In this document: positions 27,207 to 43,909 of the stretch, piece after piece
How positions within the stretch are numbered: the stretch's first letter is position 1
How the letters are laid out: every line of letters begins with the position of its first letter
Source of the DNA: Eledone cirrhosa
Lineage: Eukaryota
Direction of reading: 5' to 3'
DNA: 47,674 bases
Assembly (NCBI GenBank): GCA_964016885.1
Contig: CAXHJY010000832.1
Coordinates: 1 to 47,674, forward strand
Notes under the pieces: generated by a model
The model's database searches: none
What the model was told of the DNA's origin: nothing
What the model saw: only the letters and a program-made list of their open reading frames with translations
Translations under genes and position numbers: made by a program

Positions 27207-27606
27207 GGATATGCGACGGCTGGAGAGAAACGAGGCAAGCATGCTCCGCTGGATGTGCAGTGTAAATGTGTGTGAACGACCCAGCATAAATGTGTTGAGA
27301 GAGAAACTGTGTCTGAGAGGGATAGAATGTAGTGTACGGGAGAGGAGACTGAGGTGGTATGAACATGTGATGCGCATGGAGGATGACCGATGGGTGAAGA
27401 AGTGCCAGGAAATGCCAGTTGAAGGAAGACGTGGTAGAGGTAGACCACGAAAGACATGGGCGGAGGTGGTGAGAACAGACCTCAGATCATTGAAGCTCAC
27501 GGTGGAGATGACGAGGGACCGTGGCGAGTGGAGAGATGCTGTGCTGAATAAGACCCATCCCACCCTTGCAAGCAGGGAAAAGCGGACGTAAAATGATGAT
27601 GATGAT
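27207..27606 (+). mobile_element. Short 3' end of a second RTE subfamily
   Basis: DMRRLERNEASMLRWMC...RLRWY.HV...RGRGRPRKTW; the ORF runs almost to the (GAT)n tail. Confidence 0.9.
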
Positions 27607-27614
27607 AAATATAT

Positions 27615-27663
<49 letters not shown>

Positions 27664-27763
27664 AATTATATATATATATATAAATTATATATATATATAT
27701 AAATTATATATATATATATAAATTATATATATATAAATTATATATATATATATATAAATATAT

Positions 27764-27842
<79 letters not shown>

Positions 27843-27870
27843 TATATATATAAATATATATATATTTATA

Positions 27871-30546
27871 GTAAGACAGACTGAGTCAAGGTGTTCTCTG
27901 AATTTTAGGCTGGTTCCCATGTGGATGCCTAAATCTTTCACACACTGTTTTTCCATTATTTGTTGTCCTGATGGATTTCTGTAGTTTGTTGTATTTTTCA
28001 GATCTTGATCTGTTCCGTAGCGAATTAGTTCAAACTTCTTATCATTGAACAACATGTTTGTTTCCTGCCATTTGTATATGGTGGTCAGGTCCTTTTGTAA
28101 GGCCTCTGTATCCACCTCGTCTTTGATTTGTCTCATGACCCTGGTGTCATCAGCAAAGGATGAGACGTTGCTGGTTGTATCTTCATCTATGTCAGAGATG
28201 AGGATGAGAAACAGGATCGAGCCGAGTACTGTACCCTGAGGAACACTGCTGGTCACAGGTGATGGTGTTGAATGGGTTCCATTCACAGTGACTGTTTGAG
28301 TTCTATATGTAAGGAACTCATGTATCCATGTACCAACTTTTCCTCCTACTCCTAGCTTTCGAAGTTTGTGTCCCAGGATGCCATGATCTACCTTGTCAAA
28401 TGCCTTGGCAAAGTCGAGGTAAATAACATCTGTGTTGTATCCATTCTCTAGATTTTCTAGGATTTGGTCATGGTGTGCCAGTAGTTGGGAAAGACATGAT
28501 CTACCTAACCTGAATCCATGCTGGTTGCAATTCATCAGATTGTTGGATTCCAGGAACTCAACCAGTTTTCCACGAACTATTCTTTCGAAGACCTTGATAA
28601 TGTGTGATGTCAGTGAGATTGGTCGGTAGTTCTTTGGTTTTGATTTGCTGTCCCCTTTATGTATTGGAGTTATGTGTGCTTCTTTATATGTATTTGGTAT
28701 TTTGCCATTCTCCATAGATTCCTTCCATATCATGTAAAGGGGTTTCAACAATTGTACCTTGCAGTTTTTAAGTATCATGGCATTGAAACCATCAGGCCCC
28801 GCAGCCGAGTGCATGGAGAGCTTGTCTATGGCTCTTTCTATGTCTTCTGGGTTGAAATCAATGTCGGATAGGGTAGGTTTAGTATGGTCGATATCCTTGA
28901 AGAATTCTCCTGGGTCATGGATCTTCATGGTTTTAGATGGCTCACTGAAGACACTTTCATACTGTTGACCCAACATTTCTGCCATTTCAATAGGGTTATT
29001 CACTACATCCCCATTTTGTCTCTGGAGAGGTCCTATTGTTGACTTGGTATTCGAGTATTTCTTTGCAAAACTGTAGAAACATTTTGGATTTTTCTTGATG
29101 TTTTCTATGGCTCTCTTTTCTGCATTGTTACGTTCTTCATCATAGTGTTGTTTTAGATTGTCTTCTAATCTGTATATTTGGTCAAGGACTTTCTGTAGTT
29201 CATGTTTTGATGTCAGCTTAGATGTTTTGTTTCTTAGTCTTGACCTTTTGCGCATCAGGATCTTTCGCTCCCGTGGTACAAGTTTTTTTGTGGATTTGGT
29301 TTTCTTAAGAGGAATATTTTTTGCACATATTTCTTCGATCTTGTTTAAGAATTTCTTGTGTTTATCTGGCCCAGTAAGGTAGAGATCCCAGTCAATGATT
29401 TGTAACTGGTTGTTAATAGTTTCCCAATTTGCCTGGTGATAATCATACCTGCATAGCTTTGGCATGTCCTTTTGTTTAAGAGTTGTGGCATTGGGCTCAT
29501 TACCAATGTGTAAATGCATTTCAATAATATTGTGGTCTGAAAGGATTGTTGGGGTTGAGTGAAGGTCAAATAGCGTGTCCTCGTTGTTGGTGAAAACCAA
29601 GTCGATCGTATTATTATTTCTAGTTGCTTCTGTCATCATTTGTTTGAGGTATAATTTCTCTGTGACTTCCAACAGTTTGGCTGCCTGTATTTGTTCAGCT
29701 TTTGTCCCCAGTTTTAGTATGTGTCCATGTGGCCAGATGATGTTAGGGAAGTTGAAGTCACCAAGGAGGATAATGTCTGGCATTGGACTCGCCATGTTTC
29801 CCAGAATTTGTTAAAGCTTTGTCAGTGGCTCAGTGAAGGATAATGTTGGGCTGTTTGGCGGTCTGTACATTATTGTTACAACTGTATTAAGTTGGATGAT
29901 TTTTATGCACAGCAGGTTGCAGTAGGCATTTGATTCATTGACAAGTTCTATGCATGCATAGGTATCATGAATATACATGATAACACCCCCATGGGATCTG
30001 CCTTGTCTATCACATCTGAAGATGTTGAATCCATTGATTGAGATTTCGCTGTTGCGGATGTTTTCGTTGAGATGACTTTCAGTAATTCCAATTATTTTGG
30101 AGTTGTTTTCTGTTAGTAATTCTTCCAAGAAAGGGACTTTACACTGTTTTGTTTTCGGATAAAGACCCTGGATATTTGCTGTTATTATGCTTGTTGTACC
30201 GGATACATCTGCCCTATTGTTGGCAAGACTGTTGTAGTTGCTGGGACTGTGCTGACTGGATATTCGGTCTGCTGGGCTGTCTGTATTTGTTGTATGTGCC
30301 CTGTAAGTCCAGGTGTCAGCCTTTGTATCAATGTTGCCTGGTTTTGCTGAGTCATCTGTATGGAGTACAGCTGTTGTTGTAGTTGGTAGATTACGCCTAA
30401 AAAACTGCTTTCATTCATTACTGTATCGAATTTCTGCGAGTTTGGGTTTGTTACAGCTGATGTGTGCAATTGAGTAGCATGATTTTCATTCACTGTTGAG
30501 CCATGACCTGGTTTCTCCATTTTTGGGAAATGGTTTTCATACCCTA
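27871..30546 (-). mobile_element. CR1/L2-group LINE fragment (ORF1 end, APE, RT), truncated at both ends
   Basis: ANIQGL, GITESHL, YRPP, GDFN, SDH, NYRPISL, YLDFAKAFDKV, VPQG, FADD; one in-frame TAA at 29811-29813. Confidence 0.92.
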
Positions 30547-43234: not shown

Positions 43235-43262
43235 TATAAATATATATATATTTATATATATA

Positions 43263-43341
<79 letters not shown>

Positions 43342-43441
43342 ATATATTTATATATATATATATATAATTTATATATATATAATTTATATATATATATATA
43401 ATTTATATATATATATATAATTTATATATATATATATAATT

Positions 43442-43490
<49 letters not shown>

Positions 43491-43498
43491 ATATATTT

Positions 43499-43909
43499 AT
43501 CATCATCATCATTTTACGTCCGCTTTTCCCTGCTTGCAAGGGTGGGATGGGTCTTATTCAGCACAGCATCTCTCCACTCGTCACGGTCCCTCGTCATCTC
43601 CACCGTGAGCTTCAATGATCTGAGGTCTGTTCTCACCACCTCCGCCCATGTCTTTCGTGGTCTACCTCTACCACGTCTTCCTTCAACTGGCATTTCCTGG
43701 CACTTCTTCACCCATCGGTCATCCTCCATGCGCATCACATGTTCATACCACCTCAGTCTCCTCTCCCGTACACTACATTCTATCCCTCTCAGACACAGTT
43801 TCTCTCTCAACACATTTATGCTGGGTCGTTCACGCACATTTACACTGCACATCCAGCGGAGCATGCTTGCCTCGTTTCTCTCCAGCCGTCGCATCTCCAG
43901 CCGTCGCAT
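43499..43909 (-). mobile_element. Short RTE 3' end (mirror of 27207-27606)
   Basis: Two amino-acid differences from the left copy; 15 bp terminal duplication. Confidence 0.9.

What the first reader, a model, noticed from the sequence alone, without database searches (positions are those of the whole stretch)
27211..43909. 16.7 kb palindrome centred on a Penelope-like element: the inverted pseudo-LTR carries about 5.9 kb of flank
Seen: arms 27211-33894 and 37303-43894 around a 3.4 kb spacer holding the PLE ORF. The inner breakpoint is exactly where the partial direct 5' pLTR (36911-37304) switches, over a 2 nt TT overlap, into an inverted copy of the element's 3' end. That copy does not stop at the element end (38134) but continues through a second hammerhead repeat, an RTE, a CR1-like fragment and another RTE. 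Established: Penelope-like elements often form partial-tandem and inverted pLTR ends. Inference: the same template switch copied multi-kb flanking DNA (either 3'-transduced RNA or the target chromosome). That would make the PLE a generator of large palindromes and a carrier of other transposons, a scale I do not know to be described.
Basis: partly seen in the sequence, partly recalled or inferred. Interest (0 to 1): 0.88.

Follow-up and report, generated by a model that had tools for sequence, protein, structure and literature searches.

The report
Penelope insertion mirrored 6 kb flank
A 16.7 kb mirror-image duplication is centred on a Penelope-type jumping gene and likely arose once, when the new DNA strand folded back and copied about 6 kb of neighbouring chromosome during insertion; other copies of the element almost never do this, so it is a rare accident rather than a way of carrying DNA around.

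Summary
The palindrome is in the assembly as described: 6.6-6.7 kb arms, 8 substitutions in 5,072 non-microsatellite bases, and a 3.4 kb spacer holding a broken Penelope-like ORF. It breaks its family's rule. Of 132 other loci, 98 have an inverted end, and 88 of 88 classifiable pairs have one long and one short end; this one has two long ends. So the right arm was copied from the left arm's DNA, not made by the usual route. The mirrored flank is local: it shares a rare TA-array motif with the left flank (0 of 268 arrays elsewhere) and no donor locus was found, so transduction is unlikely. The arms are about as old as the insertion. Best reading (0.45): fold-back copying during insertion, closed by a 3-nt microhomology join. 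Rivals: later repair at the element's inverted repeat (0.28), assembly chimera (0.17). No read bridged a junction. Two of 132 other loci carry young mirrored flanks of only 0.2-0.4 kb. Similar fold-backs are known for LINE-1, and this scan noted like cases in other genomes and one in this genome (unchecked).

The parts
26900..27206 (+). Left flank: end of a repeat family (natural end at 27197) plus 9 nt of TA
27207..27595 (+). Left arm outer end: 5'-truncated RTE copy (RTE-A); keeps 4 family bases that the right arm lacks
27596..27875 (.). TA array with the locally shared TAAATTA interruption
27876..30542 (-). CR1-like 2.67 kb unit (endonuclease and RT domains)
30543..31343 (.). TA array with TAAATTA interruptions
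31344..32219 (+). 5'-truncated RTE copy of another subfamily (RTE-C), identical in both arms
32425..32986 (-). Second hammerhead-motif repeat (short end of another pLTR-type family) and a 52-nt stub, among TA runs
33110..33894 (-). PLE 3' end with the long (tailed) terminus, inner part of left arm
33895..37302 (-). Single-copy spacer: PLE 3' UTR, ORF (34636-36863, broken) and 5' pLTR
36911..37304 (-). Partial direct 5' pLTR
37303..37304 (.). Inner fold junction, 2-nt overlap
37303..38134 (+). Inverted PLE 3' end, also long: the family anomaly
38135..43894 (.). Mirrored copy of the left flank 33109-27211
43895..43909 (-). Exit junction: 15-nt tandem duplication and 3-nt microhomology with RTE-B
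43910..45033 (-). RTE-B copy that has lost about 375 nt of its 3' end at the junction

Best explanation
This is a local inverted duplication of 6.6 kb folded on a Penelope-like element, most likely made once during the insertion when the new DNA strand folded back on itself and copied through its own junction into the target chromosome. Shown: the geometry, the two long ends, the local origin of the flank, the junction sequences. Inferred steps: (1) the element cut a TA array at about 33110 and the left end primed cDNA at the long start site; (2) at 37304 the strand's 3' end paired with itself at 33894 over 2 nt; (3) a DNA polymerase or the RT extended it over the element's 3' end and 5.9 kb of flank, presumably exposed by resection; (4) synthesis stopped at 27211, slipped by 15 nt, and joined the RTE-B copy on the right by 3-nt microhomology, deleting the original right flank up to that point. 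Ordinary copies of the family are likely made differently, by priming of both cut ends at two start sites on the RNA.
For: Both ends long, against 88 of 88 long+short pairs (57; 30 plus L192 re-read) and 11 of 11 in a second family. Three alleles absent from all family copies (0 of 103, 126, 176) sit in both arms. Left arm is the template: it holds 4 more family RTE-A bases and its RTE-A 5' end lies in a TA run like most truncated copies. Flank is local: TAAATTA-rich arrays in 4 of 9 arrays left of the palindrome and 3 of 5 in the left arm, 0 of 268 in 112 other loci; the bases after the RTE-A tail continue the left-flank repeat and that 4-mer is not among the 12 commonest starts after 83 other tails. 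Timing fits insertion: spacer private rate 3/2,192 (0.14%) vs 0.08% per arm, ratio 1.7; family 0.35% vs 0.24%, ratio 1.5; the inner 0.7 kb of the arms is no more diverged than the outer part. Precedents in the family: L216 has 390 bp of flank mirrored at 100% beside PLE arms 99.5% alike; L080 has downstream flank copied inverted near its 5' junction, 221 bp at 99.5%. L1 fold-backs with 6.3 kb inferred resection are reported (PMC11702581, passages).
Against: The timing test rests on 3 and 8 changes and cannot exclude a lag. One shared allele (el 4086) is missing from the copy's own 5' pLTR, a pattern seen 0 times in 973 control sites, and left-only changes lie inside it; this order suits a later switch within a pre-existing inverted repeat. 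Self fold-back predicts long/long or short/short copies, and none was found in 88. L216 keeps long+short ends, so it is not the same route. The arm stops within 4 nt of the RTE-A 5' end, about a 2% coincidence that this model does not explain. The contig is unplaced and no read evidence spans the structure.
Confidence: 0.45

Rival explanations
1. The element first inserted normally (long left end, short right end, about 0.75 kb inverted repeat). Later a break or stalled fork to its right let the strand pair with the left repeat and host repair copied the tail and 5.9 kb of flank before rejoining by microhomology, or a small mirrored event was later evened out by arm-to-arm conversion.
For: 98 of 132 loci offer such an inverted repeat. 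Left-only changes (52-nt loss, el 3878) lie inside the shared allele el 4086, and two right-only changes lie in the 83-nt tail just past the short end. Homologous repeats at fold junctions with about 3.4 kb median spacers occur in human inverted duplications (PMC3907307, abstract and section 8); spaced inverted repeats fold back in single-stranded DNA in yeast (PMC10164571, abstract).
Against: No sign of a lag: spacer-to-arm divergence ratio matches ordinary copies. No overwritten end among 88 pairs. The RTE-A end coincidence remains.
Confidence: 0.28
2. Assembly chimera: two haplotypes, or an inverted and a standard arrangement, were joined through the element's inverted repeat, so the arm differences are heterozygosity.
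For: Whole unplaced 47.7 kb contig. Derived alleles are balanced, 4 left and 4 right, as two alleles would be. It gives long/long ends at once. None of the 98 other inverted loci, nearly all on chromosome-scale contigs, shows it. An unchecked scan note reports a 55 kb PLE-centred palindrome on another piece of this genome.
Against: The right arm does not run on into the left flank but exits at a new junction into sequence found once in the assembly; an exon-like stretch at 10650-11200 is also single-copy. A second haplotype would need its own rearrangement at the RTE-A end. Balanced substitutions and two large indels exclude a single-molecule fold-back read.
Confidence: 0.17
3. 3' transduction: a read-through RNA from a donor PLE with 5.9 kb of flank was copied twice, once from each cut end, and inserted here, carrying four other transposons.
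For: It would explain why both arms end within 4 nt of each other and why both ends are long.
Against: Flank arrays share a motif with the left flank that is absent from 268 arrays elsewhere. No donor among the 40 scored hits of each of four searches. No clear transduced flank at 158 other ends. PLE RT starts at two fixed internal sites and needs ORF-start RNA in vitro (PMC11167929, parts 1-2 of 4).
Confidence: 0.05

Closest known systems
EN+ Penelope-like insertions with inverted 5'-truncated copy and one-sided tail (PMC3846280 passages; 10.1101/2021.04.23.441226 passages; PMC11167929)
   Same: Partial direct pLTR, adjacent head-to-head inverted copy, TA-microsatellite target, tail defined by two RT start sites.
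   Different: Here both ends carry the tail, the arm runs 5.9 kb into flank, and the right side is not a TA target but a microhomology join with deletion. The tail is about 83-89 nt, not 30-40.
LINE-1-associated fold-back junctions and templated genomic inversions (PMC11702581 passages; PMC7058536 search listing only)
   Same: A retrotransposon sits at the fold of an inverted duplication; kilobases of inferred resection; short microhomology.
   Different: Those are somatic or cell-line events, often leading to unstable chromosomes, and the cDNA is the spacer. Here the element's own 3' end is in both arms and the duplication is closed interstitially in an assembled genome.
Human inverted duplications with a disomic spacer (PMC3907307) and inverted-repeat-mediated DUP-TRP/INV-DUP (PMC11293582, abstract)
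   Same: Spacer of about 3.4 kb, 2-nt inverted microhomology or homologous repeats at the fold, second junction by end joining.
   Different: Far smaller, made only of repeats, and the fold point is a new retroelement junction.
pLTR-framed gene capture by Penelope in Adineta vaga (PMC3846280 passages)
   Same: PLE ends next to non-element DNA.
   Different: Captured DNA lies between pLTRs inside a target duplication and moves to a new site; here it lies outside the ends and is local.

Membership tests
EN+ Penelope-like element | Single ORF with PLE-type RT and C-terminal GIY-YIG endonuclease with CCHH motif | tested here: inconclusive
   An intact natural copy (L018, 742 aa) shows YRDD, IIY..YVG and C..C/CCRH motifs (motif meaning recalled, partly named). 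Pfam and PDB gave no significant hit. No tree was built.
EN+ Penelope-like element | Partial tandem forming pLTRs, optional inverted 5' copy | tested here: met
   direct pLTR here; 98 of 132 other loci have an inverted copy.
EN+ Penelope-like element | Hammerhead motif in the pLTR | tested here: inconclusive
   Core motifs visible in the sequence; Rfam 0 hits; fold z-score not significant.
EN+ Penelope-like element | AT-rich or microsatellite target | tested here: met
   152 of 160 outward ends are followed by at least 11 of 12 A/T.
Canonical PLE insertion unit | Tail on one end only | tested here: not met
   Both ends long, against 88 of 88 in the family.
Canonical PLE insertion unit | Inverted arm stops at the element end, target sequence on both sides | tested here: not met
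   Arm runs 5.9 kb into flank and exits into a truncated RTE.
3' transduction | Donor locus with the same element plus flank elsewhere | tested here: not met
   None among 40 scored hits per search; a donor missing from this haploid assembly cannot be excluded.
3' transduction | Carried DNA foreign to the landing site | tested here: not met
   Shared rare TA-array motif with the left flank.
Fold-back inverted duplication with spacer | Inverted arms, single-copy spacer, inverted micro- or repeat homology at the fold | tested here: met
Fold-back inverted duplication with spacer | Loss of DNA distal to the fold | tested here: inconclusive
   RTE-B lacks about 375 nt at the exit; the full size of the loss needs the empty site.
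Fold-back inverted duplication with spacer | Copy-number gain and junctions shown in reads | not testable with these tools
   Only short contigs of public runs could be laid.

The most novel reading that the evidence does not exclude
Penelope insertion intermediates are a recurring source of local inverted duplications, from 0.2-0.4 kb (L080, L216; 2 of 132 loci) up to 6 kb here and perhaps tens of kb, so that in a genome with thousands of young copies they seed palindromes in the germ line, and the long/long versus long/short end code tells which route made each one.
Probability: 0.3. Interest if true: 0.65.

Novelty: new variant of a known kind. Interest (0 to 1): 0.4.

Why it matters
If real, it extends retrotransposon-linked fold-back duplication, known for LINE-1, to Penelope-like elements in a natural genome, at a multi-kilobase scale that four literature searches did not turn up. 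The more general result is the strict end rule (88 of 88 here, 11 of 11 in a second family): it puts numbers on the described one-sided tail, argues that ordinary inverted pLTRs come from two primings rather than self fold-back, and gives a simple test for spotting rearranged or mis-assembled copies. It does not make the element a carrier of other transposons.

Tried and rejected
Laying public runs: the left junction was swamped by repeat copies; at the exit junction no contig of four runs covered 43872-43898, which proves nothing either way. Rfam, Pfam and PDB did not name the hammerheads or the PLE protein. A first timing test on 27 young copies was inconclusive because ordinary arms also share private alleles, 29 shared vs 48 arm-specific in 8,452 sites. 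Using RTE-C as an old fixed marker failed: it is young; its 98.5% hit L153 is a longer sister copy with other flanks. A search for the right flank elsewhere found only the window, so no empty site was seen. Apparent exceptions set aside after reading: L192 scored long/long by script but is short next to an older copy; L203 ends 17 nt short of the long site with a small local fold; L213's 190 bp mirror is about 93% alike while its PLE arms are 98%, so probably older; L077, L092 and L095 matches are out of register or common repeats. Single-molecule fold-back read artefact rejected (balanced substitutions, large indels). Homologous recombination between RTE-A and RTE-B rejected: the join is not at matching positions. 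No background rate of mirrored flanks at non-PLE sites was measured.

Full report
Observation. The window is the whole unplaced contig C859 of a 3.0 Gb assembly. Self-comparison gives one large inverted pair, 37303-43899 against 33894-27206. A gapped alignment shows continuous identity to 43894/27211. Seven non-microsatellite blocks total 5,072 aligned bases with 8 substitutions plus the junction base; there are also a 3-nt and a 68-nt loss on the right and a 52-nt loss on the left. The spacer holds a PLE ORF on the minus strand with one nonsense change and two indel sites relative to an intact natural copy. The 5' direct pLTR turns into the inverted copy over a 2-nt overlap. A stretch at 10650-11200 and the right-flank junction at 45036-45073 are each found once in the assembly, so the contig is not a duplicate of a placed region at those points.

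What the family normally does. I fetched 92 loci chosen by similarity (each search scored 40 candidates of 2,066-5,612) and 40 loci taken in order along contig C1 from the first 100 listed of 922 exact long-end matches. Elements end at two sites, a long one and a short one about 83-89 nt inside it. In the first set 64 of 92 have an inverted arm; 57 could be classed at both ends and all 57 are long+short; 7 have a damaged or unresolved end. In the second set the script scored 34 of 40 as inverted: 30 short partners, 3 other, and 1 long that on reading is a short end beside an older copy. That makes 88 of 88. Part of the sample was picked by its long end, but the partner was free to be either. 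A second hammerhead-motif family shows the same in 11 of 11 pairs. By coordinates, none of the first 100 long ends on C1 forms a head-to-head long/long pair within 20 kb (read from the list). The one-sided tail is described (10.1101/2021.04.23.441226, passages; PMC3846280, passages), and two internal RT start sites bounding the tail were shown in vitro (PMC11167929, parts 1-2 of 4). My inference is that ordinary inverted copies come from priming of both cut ends. The window has two long ends, so it did not arise that way alone.

How often flank is mirrored. Up to 2 kb (first set) or 1.5 kb (second set) beyond each end was compared; a few loci had little or almost wholly masked flank (L003, L031, L039, L071, L217, L222). 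No arm ran kilobases into flank. L216 has 390 bp mirrored at 100% while keeping long+short ends, with PLE arms 99.5% alike. L080, which has no inverted PLE arm, carries inverted copies of its downstream flank (221 bp at 99.5%, 270 bp at 97.8%) upstream of its 5' junction. L213's mirror looks older than its insertion. So young mirrored flanks occur at about 2 of 132 loci and are more than ten times shorter than here. I have no control rate for non-PLE sites.

Which arm is the copy, and from where. RTE-A family copies read through four bases that the left arm keeps and the right arm lacks. The left RTE-A end lies in a TA run, as most truncated copies do. The right arm ends in a 15-nt tandem duplication and a 3-nt microhomology with RTE-B, which has lost about 375 nt. 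So the right arm is derived. The TA arrays of the mirrored flank carry an interruption found in 4 of 9 arrays left of the palindrome and 3 of 5 in the left arm, but in 0 of 268 arrays from 112 other loci. The bases after the RTE-A tail continue the repeat that ends just left of the arm. No donor appeared in four searches, and 158 other element ends show no clear transduced flank; the six matching pairs outside the window differ in offset or end type and look like common neighbouring repeats. The flank is therefore local, and the transposons in it were duplicated in place, not carried.

When. With all 92 loci as background the spacer ORF has 3 private substitutions in 2,192 sites (0.14%); each arm has 4 in 5,072 (0.08%). 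Family values are 330/95,182 (0.35%) and 16 over 3,376 arm sites (0.24% per arm). The ratios, 1.7 and 1.5, fit formation at or soon after insertion, but the counts are too small to exclude a lag. Against this, allele el 4086 is in both arms, in none of 176 family sequences and not in the copy's own 5' pLTR; that pattern was seen 0 times in 973 control sites from six loci.

Mechanism. I commit to a fold-back of the new strand during insertion, copying through its own junction over resected target and closed by microhomology end joining (0.45). The steps are inferred; the geometry is shown. Later repair at a pre-existing inverted repeat is the main rival (0.28). Both are local DNA-templated copying. 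An assembly chimera through the inverted repeat (0.17) cannot be excluded, because no read evidence spans the structure. Transduction is unlikely (0.05). Unexplained under the first three: the copy stops within 4 nt of the RTE-A 5' end, about a 2% chance. The 15-nt duplication resembles the 14-nt one at RTE-B's own 5' junction, so the template may have ended at an unsealed RTE-A junction; this is untested.

Comparison and novelty. Fold-backs at L1 insertions, one with 6,271 bp of inferred resection, are reported (PMC11702581, passages). Human inverted duplications have a median spacer of 3,428 bp with 2-8 nt inverted microhomology or homologous repeats (PMC3907307, abstract and section 8). PMC10164571 and PMC11293582 were seen as abstracts. 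Searches found no report of multi-kb flank mirrored at a PLE; the library is incomplete. Unchecked notes of this scan describe similar cases in other genomes and a 55 kb one in this genome. Verdict: real in the assembly, a rare variant of a known kind of rearrangement, interest 0.4.

Noticed in passing
L216 (G000:C1, 150.24 Mb): 390 bp of flank mirrored at 100% on both sides of a PLE that keeps long+short ends; fits bridging of two sister ends at insertion (inference).
   Followed up: partly
L080:3111-4193 vs 8032-9548 (oriented copy): 5'-truncated PLE with a 369-bp direct duplication and inverted copies of its downstream flank upstream of the 5' junction.
   Followed up: partly
132 PLE loci and L172-L182: Strict pairing of one long and one short end in inverted copies of two families (88 of 88; 11 of 11).
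   Followed up: yes
window 27876-30542: The CR1-like unit has the same two ends in about half of the 40 scored genomic hits at 98-99% identity: a defined 2.68 kb family rather than random truncations.
   Followed up: no
window 16756-21941 and 27596-32424: TA arrays share a TAAATTA interruption absent from 268 arrays elsewhere, so arrays in a neighbourhood seem to descend from or convert each other.
   Followed up: partly
window 33852, 33859, 36190, 36197: Two pairs of A-to-G changes on the PLE sense strand, each pair 7 nt apart; could be edited template RNA (speculation).
   Followed up: no
window 45015-45040: RTE-B 5' junction carries a 14-nt templated duplication of nearby element sequence.
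   Followed up: partly
window 8991-11162: 723-aa low-complexity ORF whose last part is single-copy; it recalls a GPR180/TMEM145-like first exon (from memory; Pfam gave no hit).
   Followed up: partly
window 4244-4552: Fasciclin-domain exon-like stretch, overlapping an 85% palindromic repeat at 4064-4366.
   Followed up: no
L004, L022, L026, L077, L109, L187, L203: Inverted arms that end short of either start site; one (L004) at an assembly gap, others suggest later loss or aberrant priming.
   Followed up: partly
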